64,000 bases of DNA, taken from the NCBI GenBank assembly GCA_902765395.1, contig CACWZP010000011.1:50031-114030 (forward strand), given 5' to 3'. Every line of letters begins with the position of its first letter. Position 1 is the first letter of the stretch. The position numbers and the translations under genes were made by a program. Positions 10,553-64,000 of this stretch are shown here, one piece after another. The DNA comes from an uncultured Eubacteriales bacterium (lineage in GTDB: Bacteria; Bacillota; Clostridia; Christensenellales; Aristaeellaceae). Under the pieces are notes generated by a model. The model made no database searches, was not told where the DNA came from, and was given only the letters and a program-made list of their open reading frames with translations.

Positions 10553-10888
10553 ATGAAGGATTGCCTGTTTTGCAAGATCATCGCCGGGGAGATCCCCTGC
10601 AACAAGGTGTACGAGAACGACAAGGTGTTCGCCTTCCGCGACATCAACCCCCAGGCGCCGGTGCACGTGCTGATCGTGCCGAAGACGCACGTGGACAACA
10701 TCCTTCAGTGCGACGGCGACATGGCCGCGGCGTTGACCGAGGCGGTGGGCGAGGTGGCCCGGCTGGAGGGCGTGGATGAGAGCGGCTTCCGCGTCATCAG
10801 CAACTGCGGCAGCGACGGCGCCCAGTCGGTGAAGCACCTGCACGTGCATCTGCTGGGCGGGGTGCAGCTGACGGAGAAGATGAACTGA
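10553..10888 (+). CDS. HIT-family (histidine triad) nucleotide-binding protein
   Basis: HIT motif HLHVHLLGG and N-terminal CLFCKIIAGEIP. ATG 10553 is preferred over 10529. Confidence 0.88.
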   Translation: MKDCLFCKIIAGEIPCNKVYENDKVFAFRDINPQAPVHVLIVPKTHVDNILQCDGDMAAALTEAVGEVARLEGVDESGFRVISNCGSDGAQSVKHLHVHLLGGVQLTEKMN

Positions 10889-56411: not shown

Positions 56412-56443
56412 ATCTTCTGTTCGATGCGATGCATCGACCGCGT

Positions 56444-56776
56444 GGGGCATTAGCACAGTTGGCTAGAACGAACCGTCGTTTCTACATCCCAATGACGCTG
56501 ATAACACCCACGAAACAGTTTGTCGAAACTGTACAAAATTCGGCAGGATAATTTGGGGCATTAGCACAGTTGGCTAGAACGAACCGTCGTTTCTACATCC
56601 CAATGGCGCTGATAACACCCACGAAACAGTTTGTCGAAACTGCACAAAATTCGACAGCATAATTTGGGGCATTAGCACAGTTGGCTAGAACGAACCGTCG
56701 TTTCTACATCCCAATGAAGCTGATAACACCCACGAAACAGTTTGTCGAAACTGTACAAAATTCGGCAGCATAATTA
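56444..56776 (+). repeat. Three 111-bp tandem units, each starting with the first 23 nt of tRNA-Ala
   Basis: Units start at 56444, 56555 and 56666. Only 6 positions vary between units. The array abuts the intact tRNA at 56777. Confidence 0.97.
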
Positions 56777-56853
56777 GGGGCATTAGCACAGTTGGCTAGC
56801 GCGCTACATTCGCATTGTAGAGGTCACCGGTTCGAATCCGGTATGCTCCACCA
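56777..56853 (+). tRNA. tRNA-Ala (anticodon CGC)
   Basis: Sequence is GGGGCATTAGCACAGTTGGCTAGCGCGCTACATTCGCATTGTAGAGGTCACCGGTTCGAATCCGGTATGCTCCACCA. It has the G3-U70 identity pair, anticodon loop TT-CGC-AT and an encoded CCA. The D-stem has one A-C mismatch. Confidence 0.9.
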
Positions 56854-56971: not shown

Positions 56972-59854
56972 ATGATGAAGTTTGCACCAGGAATGCGCGT
57001 CATCATCCGTGATGAAGAATGGATGATTCGGAAGTGTGATTCCAATAGCTTTAAAACCTATACACTGCAATGTGTTGGGCTGTCTCCTCTAGTCAGAGAT
57101 AAGACTGCGTACTTTATTAGCGACCTTGAGAAGGTCGTGGTTATTGATCCTGCCAAAACTACGCTGGTTCCCGACAAATCCTCTCGTTTTGTGCGTTCAC
57201 GCCTGTTCTTGGAGAGCCAGTGGCGTCAAAAAATCCCCACTGATGCCAAGCTGCACATCGGGCATCATGCCGTAATGGATGTCATGCCCTACCAACTGGA
57301 GCCTGCGGCCATGAGCCTTGCCCGCCCACGCCAGCGGATTCTGATGGCAGACGGCGTCGGTCTGGGCAAAACGCTTGAAGCAGGTATTCTGATCAGTGAG
57401 CTCATCGCTCGAGGGAAAGGGCGTCGCATTCTCGTCGTCACGGTTAAGAGCATGATGGCCCAGTTTCAAAAGGAGATGTGGGAGCGCTTTTCCATTCCCT
57501 TGATCAGCCTGGATTCTGCAAAGATTCAGCGCATCCGGCGCGATCTTCCCAGCAATCATAACCCCTTTCACTATTACGATAAGACCATCGTCTCCATCGA
57601 CACGATCAAAAGGGATAGCGAATACCGAGTCCACCTGGAGCATGCCCGGTGGGATATCATCGTGATCGATGAAGCTCACAATGTAGCCAAGCGTGGCAAC
57701 AGCAATTCGCAGCGCGCTCGACTGGCAGACCTTCTCTCCAGCCGGAGCGACACCCTTATCATGCTTTCTGCTACGCCTCACGATGGCAGCGCGCGTTCCT
57801 TCGCTTCTCTGATGAACATGTTGGATCCCACCGCCATTCCCGATCCAGATAATTACACGGAGCAGGATATTAAGGACAATGGCGATGACATCAAGGGCCT
57901 GTTCATACGCCGCTTCAAGAAGGACATTCAGGATCAGGCAATGGGAGGCTTCAAGGAAAGGCGCATTGCCGAAGTGCCCTGCACCGCAACGCCAAAGGAG
58001 GAAGCGGCGCTGGAGGCTTTCCTGACCTACGAATCCCTGCTTCCAAAGACAGAAAATGGAAAGCTGCGAGACATGACGTTCAAGAAGGCCATGTTCTCCA
58101 GCCCTGCCGCGTGCCTGAAATCCGTTCAGGCGCGCATGGGCCGTCTGGCGAAGGAAGGCACAGAGGATGCCTTAAAGGAGCAGCATGCTCTCGGCATTCT
58201 GGAGCGTGCGCTTCAGGACATCAGCCCACAGGACTTTTCACGCTACCAGGAATTGCTGAAGCTTCTCCGCGACCCGGAATACGGCTGGAATTATCGGGCG
58301 GCGGATGACCGCCTGGTCATTTTCACCGAACGTATTGAAACCATGCGCTGGCTGGCCGAGCAGCTTATACAGGATCTTCACCTTCCCGCCGCAGCGGTTC
58401 AGCGGTTGCACGGCGGTATGAGCGATATCGATCAGCAGAAAATCGTAGAAGAATTCGGCCGTGATGAAGCGCCTGTACGCATTCTCGTTGCCAGCGATGT
58501 TGCCTCTGAGGGCATCAACCTGCACTATCTCAGCCACAGGATGATTCATTTTGACATCCCGTGGTCGCTGATGGTGTTCCAGCAGCGGAATGGCCGCGTG
58601 GATCGCTATGGGCAGAAGGTGTCGCCGGACATCCGATACATGGTTACACGATCCACCAATGAGGAGATTCGGGGCGACATGCGTATCCTCCAGGTTTTGA
58701 TCCGCAAGGAAGCGGAGGCTAACAAGAACATTGGCGACGTGGGTGCGCTCATGAACCTGTATGATCAGGACGCCGAGGAGCAGCTGACCTATCGCGCCAT
58801 GGAGGAGAGCACCGCAGAAGCCTTCGAGCAGGAATTGACGATCGATGAAAGTGCTTCCCTGGAGGATTTGTTCGCGGATCTTCTTGACGACACGTCCACG
58901 GCGGCGGATGATTCTTCCCCCAGCGCTTCCACAGTCGCAGAGACGGTGGACGATTACACCCTGATGTCTGACGGAGCGTTCCTGGAAGGCACTGTTCGTC
59001 TGCTGGCCCAGGAGCGACCCTACAAAATACAGCCCCTTCACGACACACAGGGCTTTGAGGTGCGCTGGACACAGGACATGCAGCGGCGCTTTCGCAATGT
59101 TCTGCCGCCGGAGGCCACGCCCAGCATCGACGACTGGCTGATGTTGTCCTCTGACAAGGGCTTCGTGGCGCGGGAAAACCGCCGGAGCCTGCAAAACGCG
59201 CTGGAGGAAGACAGCTGGCCGAAGGTGCACTATCTGTGGCGTCAGCACCCCATCATGCAGTGGGCCAACGATAAAGCCGGGCAATTCTTCGGCCGGCAGG
59301 AAGCGCCGCTGGTTGGTGTGCCTTCACTGAAGAGCGGAGAGGTCGTGTTCTGCATCGCAGGTACCATCCCCAACAAGCGGTCTGCCCCCCTTGTGGATGA
59401 GTGGTTCGGGGTTCATTTTGTAGACGGGCGATTTGATCGCCTCATCCCCATGGATGAAGTGATTGCTATGACGCACTTCAATGACGCGAGTCAGCCCAAT
59501 TCCGATCGCGTGGCCGATGAGGATGCGCAGCGGGTCTCCCGCCTTCTTCCAGAGGTCGTGCAGCAGGCAAAGGCGCACATGACAGCCACCTACAATACAT
59601 ACAGGGCTATGAACGAGGATGCCATCTTTGCGGAGTACGGCAAACTGGAGGCGCTGAAGGCCCGACATGAAAGCCATCTGCAGGAGAAGTATGAACAGCT
59701 CTCCTTCTTTGGCAAGGAAAAACGCCAGGATGCTGAGCAGCGCCACATCGATCAGATATTTGATGAGTTTTACGCATGGGTTGACGAGAGCATGGAAATT
59801 GAGAATGTTCCCTATATCCGCGTCGTCGCAGCCTTCATGGGGGTAGAAGCATGA
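56972..59854 (+). CDS. SNF2-family helicase (DISARM DrmD-like)
   Basis: Motif I MADGVGLGKT, motif II VIDEAHNV, motif III LSATPHDG and motif VI QQRNGRVDRYGQ. Its stop overlaps the next ATG (ATGA). Confidence 0.9.
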   Translation: MMKFAPGMRVIIRDEEWMIRKCDSNSFKTYTLQCVGLSPLVRDKTAYFISDLEKVVVIDPAKTTLVPDKSSRFVRSRLFLESQWRQKIPTDAKLHIGHHAVMDVMPYQLEPAAMSLARPRQRILMADGVGLGKTLEAGILISELIARGKGRRILVVTVKSMMAQFQKEMWERFSIPLISLDSAKIQRIRRDLPSNHNPFHYYDKTIVSIDTIKRDSEYRVHLEHARWDIIVIDEAHNVAKRGNSNSQRARLADLLSSRSDTLIMLSATPHDGSARSFASLMNMLDPTAIPDPDNYTEQDIKDNGDDIKGLFIRRFKKDIQDQAMGGFKERRIAEVPCTATPKEEAALEAFLTYESLLPKTENGKLRDMTFKKAMFSSPAACLKSVQARMGRLAKEGTEDALKEQHALGILERALQDISPQDFSRYQELLKLLRDPEYGWNYRAADDRLVIFTERIETMRWLAEQLIQDLHLPAAAVQRLHGGMSDIDQQKIVEEFGRDEAPVRILVASDVASEGINLHYLSHRMIHFDIPWSLMVFQQRNGRVDRYGQKVSPDIRYMVTRSTNEEIRGDMRILQVLIRKEAEANKNIGDVGALMNLYDQDAEEQLTYRAMEESTAEAFEQELTIDESASLEDLFADLLDDTSTAADDSSPSASTVAETVDDYTLMSDGAFLEGTVRLLAQERPYKIQPLHDTQGFEVRWTQDMQRRFRNVLPPEATPSIDDWLMLSSDKGFVARENRRSLQNALEEDSWPKVHYLWRQHPIMQWANDKAGQFFGRQEAPLVGVPSLKSGEVVFCIAGTIPNKRSAPLVDEWFGVHFVDGRFDRLIPMDEVIAMTHFNDASQPNSDRVADEDAQRVSRLLPEVVQQAKAHMTATYNTYRAMNEDAIFAEYGKLEALKARHESHLQEKYEQLSFFGKEKRQDAEQRHIDQIFDEFYAWVDESMEIENVPYIRVVAAFMGVEA

Positions 59855-62800
59855 GCATGGATCTGACGGGCATCAAAAACCGGAATGAATACTATACCAA
59901 CCACTATTTTGCCTCCATCTTTGAGGAGAATGCCGCCGGTACCATAAAAGCCTGGCGGGACGCGGCACAGGGCACGGAGCAGCGCACGCCCTGGGCCTTG
60001 CTGCGCGACGCTGGCAAGCGGTATTTCATGATTCGCAATCGTCTGGAGCGCAGGCGCGGCAATGATGCCCTGGAAAGAGGAATCGCGGAGATCGCCCGCG
60101 AACTGCTGTCTGCCCTGGGCTATGACACGGCAGCCTTGAAACCGGAGCTCGTCGAGCTCCCCGGCATGAGCCTGGTCAAGGTGCCGATTGCCATGGAGGT
60201 CAACAAGCCAAACGGCGCGCCTCTGCTCTGGACCATCGTGGTTTCACCCAGGTGGGAGGAAGAACTGTCTGTCGAAAATGAAGATGAGGCAGACAGTGCC
60301 GATATTTTGAACTACATCCCCTTCGCGGCGGACCTGCGGCCCGACCATGACATCCCCTTCGACGGTGAAGCGCTGATTCGCGTGCCGATAGAAGAGCTGC
60401 TGGGGAAACTTTTATATGACTTGGACGAGAGCCCGCGCTGGATCCTACTGATTAACGACAGCCAGATCGCCCTGATCGACCGCAACAAGTGGAATGAAAA
60501 GCGCTTTCTGCTGTTTGATCTGGACGAGATATTTGGGCGCAATGAGGAATCGACGCTGCAGGCCATGGCGGTGCTGCTGCACGCCGAATCCCTCTGCCCT
60601 GCGGACGGCGGATGCCTGTTGGACGTGTTGGACGACAACAGCCACAAGCATGCCTCCGGGGTTTCGCGTGATCTCAAATATGCCCTGCGTCAGTGCATCG
60701 AGATTCTGGGCAACGAAGTTGTCTACGATATGAAGGAGCGCCAGCATGTCGCCGTGTTTGGCCGTGATCTGGCGAACGAGCTCACGATACAGTGCCTCCG
60801 CTACATGTATCGCATCATGTTCATGCTGTTCATCGAGGCCAAGCCGGAATTGGGCTATGCCCCCATGAAGGCACAGACCTATGAATCCGGCTATTCCTTT
60901 GAGAGCCTGCGGGAGATCTGCGAACAGGCCGAGGGCGATGGCGAGATCGACGAGGAAGGCAGCTTCCTGAAGACCAGTCTGGACAAGCTGTTCAGCCTGG
61001 TTTATAACGGCTTCCCTGCCGAAAGGGATCTGATCCACTATTCCGATTCCCAGAAGGGCGTATTTGTCATCGACCCGCTGAAGGCCCACATCTTCGATCC
61101 TGAGCGCACAGCGCTGATCGAAAAGGCCCACCTGCGCAACGGAAAGCTCATGCAGATCATCAACCTGATGAGCTTGTCCCGCGGTGGGCGTGGCCAGCGC
61201 CGCGGCCGCATCAGCTATTCCAACCTGGGCATCAACCAGCTGGGCAGCGTGTATGAGGCGCTGCTGTCCTACCGCGGCTTCTTTGCCGAGGAAGACCTGT
61301 ACGAGGTGAAGAAGAAGGGCGACAAGGTGGACGACCTGGACGTCGGCTACTTCGTCACCCAGGCGGAGCTGGATCAATATGACGAGGACGAGCGCGTGCG
61401 CGTGGACGAGAACAACCCCGTCTCCGACCTGCGCATCCATCCCAAGGGCGAGTTCATCTACCGTCTGGCCGGGCGCGAGCGCGAGAAGTCCGCGTCCTAC
61501 TACACGCCGGAGGTGCTGACGCACTGCCTGGTGAAGTATGCCCTGAAGGAGCTGCTGGAGGGCAAGACTGCCGACGAGATCCTCCAGCTCACCATCTGCG
61601 AGCCCGCCATGGGCAGCGCCGCGTTCCTGAACGAGGCGGTCTCCCAGCTGGCCGAGGCCTACCTGACCCGCAAGGAGCAGGAGATCGGCGAGAGCGTGCC
61701 CCACGACAAGCGCGTGCAGGAGCTGCAGCGCATCAAGATGTTCATCGCTGACCGCAACGTGTACGGCATCGACCTGAACCCCATTGCCGTGGAACTGGCC
61801 GAGGTCTCGCTGTGGCTGAACTCCATCTATGAGGGCGGCTATGTGCCGTGGTTCCGCACGCAGATCGTCAACGGCAACAGCCTGATCGGCGCGCGGCGGC
61901 AGTGCTATACCCTGAACCAGGCGCGGGCGCAGGCGGGAGCGGCGGTGTGGTACAACAACGCGCCGGAGCGCATTGAGCCCGGAAAGCAGCGCAAGTTCTC
62001 CCGGCAGATCTATCATTTCCTGCTGGGCGACCCCGGCATGTGCGCCTACACAGACAAGGTTATCAAGTCCCTGGAGCCGGAGAAGATTGCCCACATCAAG
62101 GATTGGAACAAGAAGTTCACCAAGCCGCTGACGGAGGACGAGTGCGACCGCGTGCTGGAGCTGTCCTCCGCGGTGGACCGGCTGTGGGACGAGCACGTGC
62201 GCATCCGCGGCGAGATCAGCCGCAAGACCACTGACCCGCTGTCCGTATGGGGCCAGCCGGAGGACACGCAGCACCATCCGCTGACCATCCGGGAGAAGGA
62301 CCGCATTTACGACAGCCTGTACCTGACCGAGCACCAGCAGAACGCGGGCCCCTATGCCCGTTTGAAGGCGGCCATGGACTACTGGTGCGCGCTGTGGTTC
62401 TGGCCCATCGACCAGGCCGAGGAGCTCCCCACGCGGCAGGAGTTCCTGTTCGACATGTATGCCCTGCTGGGCGTGGACATCGTCAACGCCTCCGCAAAGA
62501 AGAAGCAGTCCATCGGGCAGATCGGCATGTTCGACGATGAATTCTATGACAACATGTACAGCCTCTTCGACACCTATGGCGAGGTGAACCTCGACCAGCT
62601 GCGCAGCCTGTTCCCGCGCATGCGCATCGCCGACGAGGTGGCGAAGCAGCAGCACTTCTTCCACTGGGAGCTGGAGTTTGCGGACGTGTTCGCGGAGCGG
62701 GGTGGGTTTGACCTGGTGATCGGTAATCCGCCATGGATCAAAGTTACATGGGAAGAGAAAGATATATTATCAGAAGCTCAGCCCATTTTTGCTGTTAGAA

Positions 62801-64000
62801 AGACAACAGCGAGTCAATTACTGAGTCTTAGAGGAAATGTCATTTCTCATCGTGAGTATAGGATAGATTACATAAATGAGTATTGTAGTACATCGGGACA
62901 ACAAAACTACATTAATGCTATCCAGAATTATCCGGATTTGAGAGGCTTACAAGGGAATGTATATGAATGCTTTATTCCGCAGTCATGGACATATGCAAAC
63001 ACGAAGGGTGTGTTCGCTCTAATTCATCCTGAAAGTGTTTTCAATGAACAAGGAGGATATATTCTTAGGCAAAGCTTAAACGCAATGCTCCGAAAACACT
63101 TTCGATTCAGCAATGCCTTGAAGCTTTTCCCAGATGTACACACAAGCCGAGAGTTTGGCTTAAATGTATATTGCAACTATCCGCGATACAGTTTTGACCA
63201 GATCGTTAATCTCTATACACCTACAACTATTGACGAGTGTTACGAGAATGATGACCACGCTCCTGTATACATCCGCAATGAGGACGGAACAAGGAATATA
63301 AAAGGGTCAAGAGAAAGGATCACTGTAATAGGAAAAAGAGAATTGATGCTGTTCGCAGATCTGCTTGATGCATCTATGGAATGGCGACAGGCACGATTGA
63401 TGGCTGTTCATACAAAATCAAATATGGAGGTATTGGAACTATTTTCAAGAATTAAAACCAGAATTACTACAAGACAAGAACGTCTTAGTGTTTCCATGCT
63501 TTGGGATGAAACGAACGCACAGAAAGACAAGACGATTGTTAGAAACGTCCATTTTGGAACCCCGGAGGATACTATTCTGTCGGGAGCACACATAGGCTTA
63601 GCGAATCCACTGTTTAATTGTTCTAACGCTGGGTGTAAGAACAACAACGATAATACAAGTGTTGATTTAACAGCAATACCCAAAAACTATATTCAGCGGT
63701 GCAATTACTCTCTAGTTGATCGGAAAGTCTATGTATCAAGGATTCCTAATACTCCGTGGGGAAAACTGAATACCGATTGCTATAGGATAGGCGCAAGAAA
63801 AATGGTAGACATTGAAGGAGAACGTACTGTGGTTGCTGCACTTCTACCACCTGCGTTTGCACATACAAACGGTATCATTAACTTTGCTTTTGACGATATA
63901 AAAGAAACAGTTACGATGCTTGGGGGATTTTGTTCGCTTCCTTTTGATTTCTTTATAAAGTCTTGCGGCAAAGGAAATTTGCAAATGAATACTGCTGGAA
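59851..64000 (+). CDS. Very large N6-adenine DNA methyltransferase (Eco57I/PglX/DrmMI-like), 3' end beyond window
   Basis: Not in the supplied ORF track. I translated frame 1 by hand from ATG 59851 to 64000 (1383 codons) and found no stop. Motifs are ISYSNLGINQLGSVYEALL, SYYTPEVL, CEPAMGSAAFL (motif I) and FFHWELEFADVF...GFDLVIGNPPW (motif IV, 62725-62736). Confidence 0.88.
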   Translation, partial: MSMDLTGIKNRNEYYTNHYFASIFEENAAGTIKAWRDAAQGTEQRTPWALLRDAGKRYFMIRNRLERRRGNDALERGIAEIARELLSALGYDTAALKPELVELPGMSLVKVPIAMEVNKPNGAPLLWTIVVSPRWEEELSVENEDEADSADILNYIPFAADLRPDHDIPFDGEALIRVPIEELLGKLLYDLDESPRWILLINDSQIALIDRNKWNEKRFLLFDLDEIFGRNEESTLQAMAVLLHAESLCPADGGCLLDVLDDNSHKHASGVSRDLKYALRQCIEILGNEVVYDMKERQHVAVFGRDLANELTIQCLRYMYRIMFMLFIEAKPELGYAPMKAQTYESGYSFESLREICEQAEGDGEIDEEGSFLKTSLDKLFSLVYNGFPAERDLIHYSDSQKGVFVIDPLKAHIFDPERTALIEKAHLRNGKLMQIINLMSLSRGGRGQRRGRISYSNLGINQLGSVYEALLSYRGFFAEEDLYEVKKKGDKVDDLDVGYFVTQAELDQYDEDERVRVDENNPVSDLRIHPKGEFIYRLAGREREKSASYYTPEVLTHCLVKYALKELLEGKTADEILQLTICEPAMGSAAFLNEAVSQLAEAYLTRKEQEIGESVPHDKRVQELQRIKMFIADRNVYGIDLNPIAVELAEVSLWLNSIYEGGYVPWFRTQIVNGNSLIGARRQCYTLNQARAQAGAAVWYNNAPERIEPGKQRKFSRQIYHFLLGDPGMCAYTDKVIKSLEPEKIAHIKDWNKKFTKPLTEDECDRVLELSSAVDRLWDEHVRIRGEISRKTTDPLSVWGQPEDTQHHPLTIREKDRIYDSLYLTEHQQNAGPYARLKAAMDYWCALWFWPIDQAEELPTRQEFLFDMYALLGVDIVNASAKKKQSIGQIGMFDDEFYDNMYSLFDTYGEVNLDQLRSLFPRMRIADEVAKQQHFFHWELEFADVFAERGGFDLVIGNPPWIKVTWEEKDILSEAQPIFAVRKTTASQLLSLRGNVISHREYRIDYINEYCSTSGQQNYINAIQNYPDLRGLQGNVYECFIPQSWTYANTKGVFALIHPESVFNEQGGYILRQSLNAMLRKHFRFSNALKLFPDVHTSREFGLNVYCNYPRYSFDQIVNLYTPTTIDECYENDDHAPVYIRNEDGTRNIKGSRERITVIGKRELMLFADLLDASMEWRQARLMAVHTKSNMEVLELFSRIKTRITTRQERLSVSMLWDETNAQKDKTIVRNVHFGTPEDTILSGAHIGLANPLFNCSNAGCKNNNDNTSVDLTAIPKNYIQRCNYSLVDRKVYVSRIPNTPWGKLNTDCYRIGARKMVDIEGERTVVAALLPPAFAHTNGIINFAFDDIKETVTMLGGFCSLPFDFFIKSCGKGNLQMNTAG

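What the first reader, a model, noticed from the sequence alone, without database searches (positions are those of the whole stretch)
62700..64000. Abrupt GC-to-AT compositional break inside a single ORF, exactly at the methyltransferase NPPW motif (mosaic gene / swapped C-terminal module)
Seen directly (hand counts):
- Upstream of the break, lines 61561-61620 and 62641-62700 have 41/60 and 37/60 G+C.
- Downstream, lines 62761-62820 and 63601-63660 have 22/60 and 23/60 G+C.
- The switch happens within about 30 nt of GGT AAT CCG CCA TGG (NPPW, 62725-62736), and the reading frame continues without a stop.
- Codon choice flips as well (for example AAA, AGA, TTA, ATA).

Inference: the catalytic N-terminal two-thirds and the C-terminal part have different evolutionary origins and were joined by recombination at the conserved catalytic motif. 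In Type IIG/PglX-like enzymes the C-terminal part normally carries the target-recognition region. Specificity swapping by domain exchange is known for R-M enzymes. A junction this sharp suggests a recent event or a programmed exchange point.
Basis: partly seen in the sequence, partly recalled or inferred. Interest (0 to 1): 0.65.

Follow-up and report, generated by a model that had tools for sequence, protein, structure and literature searches.

The report
Swappable AT-rich recognition cassette in defence methylase
The sharp GC-to-AT switch is real and marks the start of a replaceable DNA-recognition cassette inside a large anti-phage methyltransferase gene; related bacteria carry unrelated cassettes in the same gene frame, which is a known way for such enzymes to change target.

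Summary
GC3 falls from 0.96 to 0.32 within about 10 codons of NPPW (62725-62736).

The AT-rich block is an internal 1.65-kb cassette, not the whole C-terminus. GC3 returns to 0.94 about 385 nt past the window end, and the gene (1,617 aa) ends at window-equivalent 64,704.

It is not an assembly chimera: six or more independent assemblies and single Logan contigs span all junctions.

The gene is a four-piece mosaic with discordant nearest relatives:
- A: 85% to P0124.
- B and D: 89-98% to a "P0005-type" backbone.
- C: 99.6% to P0005, otherwise 61% or less.

That backbone carries at least five unrelated cassettes (37-63% identical), all AT-rich. All diverge right after GGN AAT CCN CCN TGG AT. AU tests reject congruent trees.

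Between the window and its sister locus, the cassette differs at 0.36% of sites and its flanks at about 4% (p = 2e-15).

The cassette folds as the post-motif-IV half of a gamma-class adenine methyltransferase plus its target-recognition domain.

Across 78 loci from many phyla, this region has lower GC3 than the backbone in 77.

I found no silent cassettes, inverted repeats or invertase, so nothing suggests programmed switching.

Verdict: a clear new example of known specificity-module exchange, in a DISARM/ARMADA-like system.

The parts
56777..56853 (+). tRNA-Ala(CGC) at the left edge of the lower-GC defence island
   Evidence: ARAGORN. GC drops at about 56,250.
56972..59854 (+). Swi2/Snf2 helicase gene (960 aa), DrmD/BrxHII/ArmA-like. 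Its stop overlaps the methyltransferase start (ATGA).
   Evidence: ORF. Pfam SNF2-rel_dom and Helicase_C. PADLOC DrmD 2e-102 and BrxHII 3e-62. NCBIfam DISARM_DrmD scores 369 bits, below the 610 cut-off. Only 64% aa identical to the helicase of the sister loci.
59851..64000 (+). Large gamma-class N6-adenine methyltransferase gene (DrmMI/ArmB-like, 1,617 aa). It runs off the window and ends at window-equivalent 64,704 (C11:114,734).
   Evidence: PADLOC REase_MTase_IIG PDLC03614 matches end to end, E 2e-194. Pfam Eco57I 1.5e-20.
59851..61200 (+). Segment A (codons 1 to about 450). GC3 about 0.75. Ancestry shared with P0124/P0125.
   Evidence: 85% aa identity to P0124/P0125 against 55% to the P0005 group. 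Crossover at residues about 445-480. DNA identity to sister loci is 43-77% here.
61201..62721 (+). Segment B (codons about 451-957). GC3 0.90-0.96. 'P0005-type' backbone, including SAM motif I (EPAMGSAAF).
   Evidence: 96-98% aa and 93-99% DNA identity to six sister loci. 4.3% DNA divergence from L005. Backbone clade has 100% support.
62722..62739 (+). 5' exchange point: GGT AAT CCG CCA TGG ATC (G-N-P-P-W-I, catalytic motif IV)
   Evidence: All seven loci are identical through GGN AAT CCN CCN TGG AT apart from wobble bases, then diverge at once. 83% of 1,748 backbone-identical, cassette-different pairs change at residues 950-979, with the mode at 962/963. The assembly graph branches here in run X4.
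62740..64000 (+). AT-rich specificity cassette (codons about 963-1512; continues to window-equivalent about 64,385-64,400). It comprises the post-motif-IV half of the catalytic fold plus the target-recognition domain.
   Evidence: GC 0.37-0.42 and GC3 0.30-0.44. 99.6% identical to L005/L008 but 40-55% to L010-L013. AlphaFold pLDDT 92. Foldseek matches CamA, PglX/BrxX, M.BseCI, BpuSI and M.TaqI at probability 1.0.

Best explanation
The window's last 4 kb encode the methyltransferase of a DISARM/ARMADA-like anti-phage island that sits next to a tRNA-Ala gene. The gene is built as a conserved frame around a replaceable module. The frame is the N-terminal region, the first half of the catalytic domain up to motif IV (NPPW), and the last 100 or so residues. 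The module is the rest of the catalytic fold plus the target-recognition domain, about 550 codons.

In the rumen population that carries this frame, the module exists as at least five very different alleles. They are exchanged between related frames by recombination. The 5' end of the exchange is confined to the roughly 17-nt motif-IV coding sequence, the last stretch that all alleles share. The 3' end falls in one of several conserved blocks near the C-terminus.

The copy in this genome is a further mosaic. A helicase gene plus segment A of one lineage is joined at about 61,200 to a B-cassette-D block of another lineage.

The GC break is visible because every cassette allele is AT-rich (GC3 about 0.35) while the frame has host-like GC3 (about 0.9).

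Shown here:
- The mosaic structure.
- The discordant phylogenies.
- The shared junctions.
- The 12-fold lower divergence of the cassette compared with its flanks.
- The fold assignment.

Inferred, not shown:
- That swapping a cassette changes the methylated and recognised DNA motif, and hence the self/non-self mark of the defence system.
- That the recombination is ordinary homologous or homology-facilitated recombination filtered by selection for functional joints.
For: Structure and extent:
- GC and GC3 profiles, full gene extent.

Discordant neighbours:
- Segment-wise nearest neighbours disagree.
- Six proteins share a frame that is 93-99% identical but have cassettes only 37-63% identical. 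Identity collapses after GNPPWI and resumes at L(T/P)GVGVSRKAFENPG.
- DNA identity steps along the gene.
- Trees: the backbone clade is 100% supported in B and rejected in C (delta lnL 489). Own+P0005 nest in the P0007-type cassette clade.

Divergence step:
- Own versus L005 is 4.3% in B, 0.36% in C and 3.75% in D; Fisher p = 2e-15.

Generality:
- All alternative cassettes are AT-rich, 0.37-0.44, in a 0.60-0.67 frame.
- Of 2,156 protein pairs with B at least 95% identical, 54% have cassettes under 65% identical. Correlation A-B is 0.97 and B-C is 0.49.
- 5' change points cluster at NPPW; 3' change points are multimodal.

Function and reality of the junctions:
- The cassette folds as the C-terminal half of a gamma-class MTase plus TRD.
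- Independent assemblies and single contigs span all junctions at even depth. Other samples show several cassettes on one frame.
Against: - No donor is sampled. For each of the five cassettes, the nearest relative outside the backbone group is only 59-64% identical. All pairs with cassettes at least 90% identical have frames at least 85% identical. Exchange between distant lineages is therefore inferred only from tree topology.
- The motif offers at most about 8-11 nt of uninterrupted identity. That is short for RecA-type recombination, so the molecular route is unknown.
- The lower divergence of the cassette could instead arise because the flanks keep importing polymorphisms from other frames. 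Reticulate site patterns in B fit this, rather than a recent move of the cassette.
- The methylation specificity of any allele is unmeasured.
- The own assembly lacks the YprA-type helicase partner, so the activity of the system in this genome is unknown.
- The protein groups used in the AU tests were chosen after inspecting identity tables of the same data.
Confidence: 0.8

Rival explanations
1. Old balanced alleles with an intrinsic AT shift. The cassettes are not recent imports from AT-rich donors. They are ancient alleles kept in the population by phage-driven frequency-dependent selection. The flanks are homogenised by recombination. The cassettes cannot recombine with unlike alleles, so they escape GC-raising forces (biased gene conversion or codon selection) and drift to AT-rich silent sites. 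This rival concerns the cause of the AT-richness and the age of the junctions. It is compatible with the cassette-exchange architecture.
For: - Cassette GC3 is below backbone GC3 in 77 of 78 loci from many phyla.
- It tracks host GC with slope 0.46 and is lower even in very AT-rich hosts (delta 0.08), while the tail equals the N-part. A single exogenous pool of fixed GC does not predict this.
- No close donor exists for any of the five cassettes.
- Site patterns in B are reticulate, so the flanks recombine.
Against: - The same cassette type sits at GC3 0.79 in a Lawsonibacter gene whose backbone is 0.85 (L017). Cassettes can therefore reach host composition.
- The own cassette nests among cassettes carried on AT-rich-type backbones.
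- GC1+2 and amino-acid composition are AT-shifted too.
- The general rule that mobile DNA is AT-richer than its host would also give host-tracking with an offset.
Confidence: 0.3
2. Programmed switching. The junction at NPPW is a site for a dedicated recombinase that swaps the expressed cassette with silent copies, as described for DrmMI-like and PglX genes with programmed inversions.
For: - Milman et al. 2023 (PMC9881135) confirmed inversions that change the middle part of DrmMI-like and PglX genes while keeping the N- and C-termini.
- The 5' exchange point here is remarkably constant.
- The contig ends 3.5 kb downstream, as do two other assemblies, so some sequence is unseen.
Against: - No second copy or fragment of the cassette exists anywhere in the 3.38-Mb assembly (tblastn and blastn).
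- The locus has only chance-level inverted repeats (20-31 nt, 70-80% complementary).
- No invertase or integrase is nearby; there is only an IS110 transposase 3 kb upstream.
- The sister loci also show no silent copies among their called genes.
- The 3' exchange point varies by more than 70 codons.
- Run X2 shows one arrangement at even depth and no inversion joints.
Confidence: 0.05
3. Chimeric metagenome assembly: contigs of a GC-rich and an AT-rich organism were joined at the conserved motif.
For: The genome is a 53-contig bin from a gut metagenome. The junction lies at a conserved motif.
Against: - The same junctions occur in independent assemblies from other samples: L005-L008 and L009.
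- In run X2 one 7,770-nt contig covers the A/B, B/C and C/D junctions with 0 differences at depth 9. Run X1 does the same for B/C and C/D.
- Four more samples join the cassette to the GC-rich frame.
- Three in-frame switches that preserve a full-length family architecture (PADLOC match end to end) are not expected from misassembly.
Confidence: 0.02
4. A single recent horizontal event private to this genome.
For: The junction is very sharp and the cassette composition is unameliorated.
Against: - The identical B/C and C/D junctions are present in sister loci whose flanks differ by about 4%.
- They also occur in samples from at least 10 studies of cattle, sheep and goat gut.
- Four other cassettes use the same 5' junction.
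Confidence: 0.03

Closest known systems
ArmB of ARMADA systems / DrmMI of class 1 DISARM (Bell et al. 2025, bioRxiv 10.1101/2025.09.15.676423; mBio 2026, PMC13463889; Ofir et al. 2018 as cited in these)
   Same: - The gene pair is a Swi2/Snf2 (BrxHII/DrmD-like) helicase followed by a very large PglX-like adenine methyltransferase.
- In the sister loci this pair is followed by a YprA-family DEAD + DUF1998 (MZB) helicase.
- The island sits beside a tRNA gene.
- The mBio paper states that the diversity of the E. coli island lies mostly in armB.
   Different: - The own assembly ends before any YprA-type helicase, and none is found elsewhere in it.
- The sister-locus helicase scores best as DruE in PADLOC (1e-110). 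No Vsr or PLD nuclease was detected.
- Unrelated defence cargo is inserted between the methyltransferase and the helicase.
- Neither paper describes cassette exchange at motif IV or the AT-rich composition.
Domain movement / TRD exchange in restriction-modification methyltransferases of Helicobacter pylori (Furuta et al. 2011, PMC3077401; Furuta and Kobayashi 2012, PMC3575425; Furuta et al. 2014, PMC3983042)
   Same: A target-recognition module moves between alleles and genes by recombination at conserved flanking sequence. This gives mosaic genes with discordant ancestry and, in those studies, changed methylation specificity.
   Different: - Those cases are Type I S, Type IIG and Type III genes within one naturally transformable species.
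- Here the gene is a 1,600-aa defence-island methyltransferase of uncultured rumen Clostridia.
- The swapped unit includes half of the catalytic fold.
- The 5' joint is the catalytic motif itself.
- I cite these papers from titles and abstracts only.
Programmed inversions in DrmMI-like and BREX PglX genes (Milman et al. 2023, PMC9881135)
   Same: A variable middle part of the protein with constant N- and C-termini, in the same broad gene families.
   Different: That mechanism needs silent cassettes, inverted repeats and a recombinase in the same locus. None is present here. Variation here is between genomes, not within a clone, as far as the data show.
Gamma-class N6-adenine methyltransferases with a C-terminal TRD: M.TaqI, CamA, M.BseCI, BpuSI, PglX/BrxX (PDB 2adm, 7lt5, 7qw5, 3s1s, 8c45, 9ewz)
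   Same: The post-NPPW region of this protein matches their post-motif-IV catalytic half plus DNA-recognition domain (Foldseek probability 1.0, E 3e-11 to 1e-8).
   Different: Sequence identity is only 8-12% and TM-scores are 0.32-0.40, reflecting different domain orientations and extra helical parts. About 375 residues separate motif I from motif IV here. There is no sequence-level hit to any PDB chain.

Membership tests
Gamma-class N6-adenine DNA methyltransferase (Eco57I-type, PF07669) | SAM-binding motif I upstream of catalytic motif IV (D/N)PP(Y/F/W), and a Pfam Eco57I match above the gathering score | tested here: met
   EPAMGSAAF at residues 584-592 and NPPW at 959-962. PF07669 scores 74.4 bits against a cut-off of 25.3.
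Gamma-class N6-adenine DNA methyltransferase (Eco57I-type, PF07669) | Target-recognition domain C-terminal to the catalytic domain | tested here: met
   AlphaFold model with pLDDT 92. Foldseek matches to M.TaqI, CamA, M.BseCI, BpuSI and PglX cover 440-640 alignment columns.
Type IIG restriction-modification enzyme (nuclease and methyltransferase in one chain) | An N-terminal endonuclease domain with an intact catalytic motif | tested here: inconclusive
   The PADLOC profile named REase_MTase_IIG matches end to end (E 2e-194). Pfam finds no nuclease domain in residues 1-530. I did not model the N-terminal region.
Class 1 DISARM | DrmD (SNF2) and DrmMI at curated thresholds | tested here: not met
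   NCBIfam DISARM_DrmD scores 369 bits, below the 610 cut-off. PADLOC DrmMI profiles match only the core, 4.8e-57 in 3 stretches, against 2e-194 for the IIG-like profile.
Class 1 DISARM | Separate DrmA helicase and DrmB (DUF1998), plus DrmC (PLD) | tested here: not met
   None in the own assembly, although the contig ends 3.5 kb downstream. Sister loci have one fused 2,111-aa DEAD + MZB protein whose DrmA score is only 6e-15.
ARMADA (ArmA-ArmB-ArmC, with or without ArmD) | BrxHII-like Swi2/Snf2 helicase next to a PglX-like adenine methyltransferase | tested here: met
   PADLOC BrxHII 2.8e-62 for the 960-aa helicase. The genes overlap by ATGA.
ARMADA (ArmA-ArmB-ArmC, with or without ArmD) | YprA-family helicase with DUF1998 and a C-terminal Vsr-type nuclease in the same operon | tested here: inconclusive
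   Absent from the own assembly. Sister loci have DEAD + Helicase_C + MZB but no nuclease was detected. The last 70 or so residues were not held, and PADLOC calls the protein DruE. No ARMADA profile was available in the libraries.
BREX PglX | NCBIfam BREX MTaseX models at their curated cut-off | tested here: not met
   24-27 bits against cut-offs of 400-900.
Programmed-inversion (shufflon-type) specificity switch | Silent cassette copies, inverted repeats at the exchange points, and a nearby site-specific recombinase | tested here: not met
   No second cassette copy in the genome. Only weak inverted repeats. Only an IS110 transposase upstream.
Recombinational TRD / specificity-cassette exchange (domain-movement type) | Conserved flanks with a hypervariable module, and significantly discordant phylogenies of flank and module | tested here: met
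Recombinational TRD / specificity-cassette exchange (domain-movement type) | Different cassettes confer different methylation motifs | not testable with these tools
   Needs methylome sequencing or expression of the alleles.

The most novel reading that the evidence does not exclude
The AT-richness of the cassette is not a trace of foreign origin. It would be an intrinsic, family-wide consequence of hypervariability. Unlike alleles cannot recombine with each other, so the cassette is shielded from GC-biased gene conversion (or from whatever keeps silent sites GC-rich). The flanking frame recombines freely and stays GC-rich. Each such gene would then be a within-gene natural experiment on what sets bacterial GC content, with a step as large as GC3 0.96 to 0.32 across about 10 codons.
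Probability: 0.22. Interest if true: 0.65.

Novelty: new member of a known kind. Interest (0 to 1): 0.35.

Why it matters
- It gives a clean, quantified example of how a large defence-island methyltransferase changes its recognition module without touching the rest of the system. The unit of exchange is mapped to the nucleotide at its 5' end (the NPPW codons). That tells anyone who wants to re-target such enzymes where natural, functional joints lie.
- The slot just downstream of the gene collects unrelated defence genes, with a duplicated gene tail left as a footprint of one insertion.
- The family-wide, host-tracking AT shift of the cassette (77 of 78 loci) is a reproducible pattern without a settled cause. 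It could bear on the debate about recombination and GC content.
- For annotation, it warns that sharp intragenic GC breaks in these genes are neither misassemblies nor pseudogenes.

Tried and rejected
- Assembly chimera: rejected by independent assemblies and spanning contigs.
- Silent cassettes or a second gene copy in the genome: none. Only a 130-nt remnant of the gene's tail recurs.
- Donor search, part 1: an exact-pattern scan of JGI metagenome contigs with the first 38 nt of the cassette found nothing.
- Donor search, part 2: in eight public runs the cassette is always joined to the GC-rich frame, never to an AT-rich gene.
- Relatives within the host's family: only 1 of 200 genomes has the gene, at 59% identity. 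It is therefore a sporadic island gene, and relatives gave no strain series.
- Sequence-profile search of the PDB: no hit. A fold search was needed instead.
- Partner helicase (DrmA/B, ArmC or DruE type) in the own genome: not found. This is inconclusive because the contig ends.
- A single exogenous AT-rich pool as the source of all cassettes: disfavoured, because cassette GC3 tracks host GC3 and is lower even in the most AT-rich hosts.
- PglX/BREX assignment: rejected by curated cut-offs.

Full report
**1. The observation**

The window is C11:50,031-114,030 of a 3.38-Mb, 53-contig, 62.5%-GC genome bin. Sequencing runs that hold this DNA come from cattle, sheep and goat gut.

GC in 200-nt windows is 0.59-0.67 from 61,100 to 62,700 and 0.365-0.425 from 62,800 to the window end. 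At 60-nt resolution the change happens between 62,680 (0.63) and 62,740 (0.35). NPPW is encoded at 62,725-62,736, codons 959-962 of the ORF that starts at 59,851.

GC3 is 0.90-0.96 for codons 451-950 and 0.30-0.44 for codons 951-1500. The cassette's GC3 is below the 1st percentile of long ORFs of this genome.

**2. The block is internal, not C-terminal**

The window cuts the gene. In the contig the ORF has 1,617 codons and ends at window-equivalent 64,704. GC3 returns to 0.94 for codons about 1551-1600. The AT-to-GC edge lies at window-equivalent about 64,385-64,400, at ...AAC AAT GCA CTC ACC | GGC GTC GGC GTC AGC CGC. Composition falls again about 15 codons before the stop and stays low through the downstream genes to the contig end.

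**3. What the gene and its neighbours are**

- The protein matches one PADLOC profile (REase_MTase_IIG, PDLC03614) from residue 9 to 1381 of the window part. That corresponds to profile positions 6-1382 of 1584.
- It has Pfam Eco57I and N6_Mtase signatures around motif I (EPAMGSAAF) and motif IV.
- BREX PglX models score far below their cut-offs.
- The upstream gene (56,972-59,854) overlaps it by ATGA. It is a Swi2/Snf2 helicase that scores as DrmD/BrxHII-like but sits below the curated DISARM_DrmD cut-off.
- A tRNA-Ala gene lies at 56,777-56,853, where GC first drops.
- Downstream, outside the window, are a 417-aa TIR_2 protein, a 151-aa zinc-ribbon protein (PADLOC PDC-M14A) and a 485-aa PDC-M14B/TIR_2 protein. 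Then the contig ends.
- In sister loci from other metagenomes the order is SNF2 helicase, methyltransferase, variable cargo, then a 2,111-aa DEAD + Helicase_C + MZB (DUF1998) helicase.
- That arrangement fits the published description of ARMADA and DISARM-like arrays. However, PADLOC names the big helicase DruE. The own assembly contains no such helicase.

**4. Not a chimera**

- An independent assembly (L009, ERZ1049843) has the identical mosaic and differs only by a deletion of about 100 nt at the very end of the gene.
- In run X2 a single 7,770-nt Logan contig covers all three internal junctions with no difference at depth 9. Run X1, a second sample, does the same for the two cassette edges.
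- Four further samples also join the cassette to the GC-rich frame.

**5. The gene is a mosaic of four ancestries**

Separate searches with residues 965-1505 and residues 1-960 gave different neighbour lists. In an alignment of 35 proteins, identity to the own protein by segment is:

| Segment | Closest relatives | Others |
|---|---|---|
| A (1-440) | P0124/P0125, 85% | P0005 group, 55% |
| B (450-962) | P0005, P0126, P0128, P0181, P0214, 96-98% | P0124, 73% |
| C (965-1508) | P0005, 99.6% | P0007-type proteins, 55-60%; rest of the P0005 group, 37-41% |
| D (1515-1603) | P0005 group, 89-94% | |

The A/B crossover lies at residues about 445-480. This is where GC3 rises from about 0.75 to about 0.92 and where DNA identity to the sister loci jumps from 67% to 87-94%.

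Trees confirm the discordance:
- In segment B the six 'backbone-group' proteins form a 100%-supported clade. Forcing own+P0005 to join the P0007-type proteins costs 702 lnL units (p-AU 2e-8).
- In the cassette, own+P0005 nest inside the P0007-type clade (100% support). The backbone clade is rejected (489 lnL units, p-AU 3e-127).
- Other cassettes pair with cassettes from other frames: P0181 with P0240, and P0214 with P0133.

The groups were picked after looking at identity tables, so the p-values are generous. The likelihood gaps are still very large.

**6. One frame, many cassettes, fixed 5' joint**

Within the backbone group, B is 93-99% identical and D is 83-96% identical. The cassettes are only 37-63% identical, giving five types among six proteins.

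At the DNA level all seven loci agree through GGN AAT CCN CCN TGG AT and diverge at the next base. The wobble bases inside the motif differ among loci and among samples. This suggests several independent joints or conversion ends within these 17 nt.

The 3' joint is at LTGVGVSRK in the own gene, in L005 and in L012. It lies about 70 codons earlier in L010, L011 and L013.

The pattern is general across 213 full-length relatives:
- Of 2,156 pairs with B at least 95% identical, 54% have cassettes under 65% identical.
- Segments A and B co-vary (r = 0.97) while B and C do not (r = 0.49).
- Over 1,748 pairs with near-identical frames but different cassettes, 83% of the 5' change points fall at residues 950-979, with the mode at W962/I963.
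- The 3' change points fall in four separate zones.

The pairs are not independent, so these figures describe the sample and are not tests.

**7. The cassette is younger than, or shielded relative to, its flanks**

Between the own gene and L005 the divergence is:
- Segment B: 62 of 1,437 sites (4.3%).
- Cassette: 6 of 1,664 sites (0.36%).
- Segment D: 9 of 240 sites (3.75%).
- Fisher p = 2e-15 for flanks against cassette.

The last differences in B lie 2, 11, 23 and 32 nt before the W codon ends. The first difference in D lies about 40 nt after GC rises.

Two explanations fit. The cassette may have moved between frames after they diverged. Alternatively, the flanks may keep importing polymorphisms from other frames while the cassette cannot. 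Site patterns in B are reticulate, which fits the second. Both make the cassette edges recombination boundaries.

**8. What the cassette encodes**

An AlphaFold model of residues 940-1590, built on 75 homologues, has mean pLDDT 92 and pTM 0.90. Foldseek against the PDB returns, at probability 1.0: CamA, BREX PglX/BrxX, M.BseCI, the Type IIG enzyme BpuSI and M.TaqI. All are gamma-class adenine methyltransferases, and the match covers their post-motif-IV catalytic half plus the DNA-recognition domain.

The swapped unit is therefore half a catalytic domain plus the TRD. That it sets the methylated motif is an inference from these relatives. It was not measured.

**9. The AT shift is a family trait**

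All four alternative cassettes on this frame are also AT-rich (0.37-0.44 against 0.60-0.67).

In 78 non-redundant loci (Clostridia, Paenibacillus, Desulfobacterota, Coriobacteriaceae, Planctomycetota, cyanobacteria and others):
- The post-NPPW region has lower GC3 than the N-part in 77 (Wilcoxon p = 2e-14, mean difference 0.20).
- The tail equals the N-part (difference -0.005).
- Cassette GC3 = 0.46 x N-part GC3 + 0.10 (r = 0.70).
- It is lower even in hosts with GC3 below 0.35.

One exception in degree is a Lawsonibacter gene that carries the same cassette type at GC3 0.79 on a 0.85 frame.

A single AT-rich donor pool does not predict host tracking. Two ideas remain open:
- Repeated import from mobile DNA that is somewhat AT-richer than each host.
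- An intrinsic shift in a region that cannot recombine.

No close donor was found for any cassette.

**10. Programmed switching?**

Programmed inversions that vary the middle of DrmMI-like and PglX proteins are documented. Here there is no second cassette copy in the genome. There are no meaningful inverted repeats and no invertase. The 3' joint varies, and there are no inversion joints in the contigs. The unseen DNA beyond the contig end is the only loophole.

**11. Verdict**

It is not a one-off recent event, not a C-terminal swap and not evidently programmed. It is the standing architecture of this methyltransferase family: a conserved frame holding a hypervariable, exchangeable, AT-rich specificity cassette. 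Here it shows at maximal contrast because the host frame is very GC-rich.

Specificity-module exchange is well known in restriction-modification enzymes. A variable middle region in DrmMI-like and PglX genes is also known. This is therefore a new member of a known kind. The unexplained, host-tracking AT shift is the one open and more general question.

Noticed in passing
L002 12070-12198 (window-equivalent 66,039-66,167), versus L002 10589-10718: A degenerate second copy of the methyltransferase gene's last 130 nt or so sits right after the first TIR gene. It is 95% identical over 93 nt, then 76% with a 1-nt shift. The 1.35-kb TIR gene is thus bracketed by direct repeats of the gene tail. This looks like the footprint of cargo insertion by recombination in the tail. 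The remnant's end resembles the tail of the sister loci more than the tail now in use.
   Followed up: partly
Sister loci L005, L006, L010-L013, and own L002 10748-14104: The slot between the methyltransferase and the YprA-type helicase holds different defence cargo in otherwise near-identical loci. L005, L006 and L011 carry HEC-01 (AAA_15 + DUF4276). L010 adds DUF1016/YhcG. L012 and the own locus carry two TIR_2 proteins with a PDC-M14A zinc-ribbon protein. L013 carries SLFN_AlbA_2/HATPase_c_4 plus GmrSD_N.
   Followed up: partly
L009 about 12,795 (own L002 about 10,676-10,775): The independent assembly L009 has a deletion of about 100 nt. It removes the end of the methyltransferase gene and the start of the TIR gene, giving a 1,610-aa product with a different C-terminus.
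   Followed up: no
window 61,150-61,300: A second intragenic breakpoint. GC3 rises from about 0.75 to about 0.92, and ancestry switches from P0124-like (together with the helicase gene) to the P0005-type frame. It lies within the conserved RRGRISYSNLG...YEALLSYRGFFAEEDLYEVK block.
   Followed up: yes
Contig ends: C11 at 118,223 (window-equivalent 68,193); L009 record end; L012 record end: Three independent assemblies with the TIR-TIR cargo all break within a few hundred bases after the second TIR gene. This suggests a repeat or strain-variable sequence there. The expected YprA-type helicase is missing from the own assembly.
   Followed up: partly
window 56,443-56,799: Three tandem 111-nt units (97-98% identical) lie directly upstream of, and overlap the start of, tRNA-Ala(CGC). 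Copies of the tRNA segment occur on contigs C17 and C2. Another finding of this scan already covers this.
   Followed up: no
Run X4 laid on L002 7891-8742: In one gut sample, segment B is present at about 90x (21 differences) while the own cassette is at about 5x. The contigs branch exactly at the NPPW codons. In runs X5 and X8 another cassette joins the shared tail at L002 10,427. Several cassette alleles on one frame therefore coexist in single samples.
   Followed up: partly
Sister-locus helicase, L006 11550-17675: The 2,111-aa DEAD + MZB helicase beside this methyltransferase family scores as Druantia DruE in PADLOC (8e-110) and only weakly as DrmA (6e-15). Pfam detects no nuclease domain in it.
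   Followed up: partly
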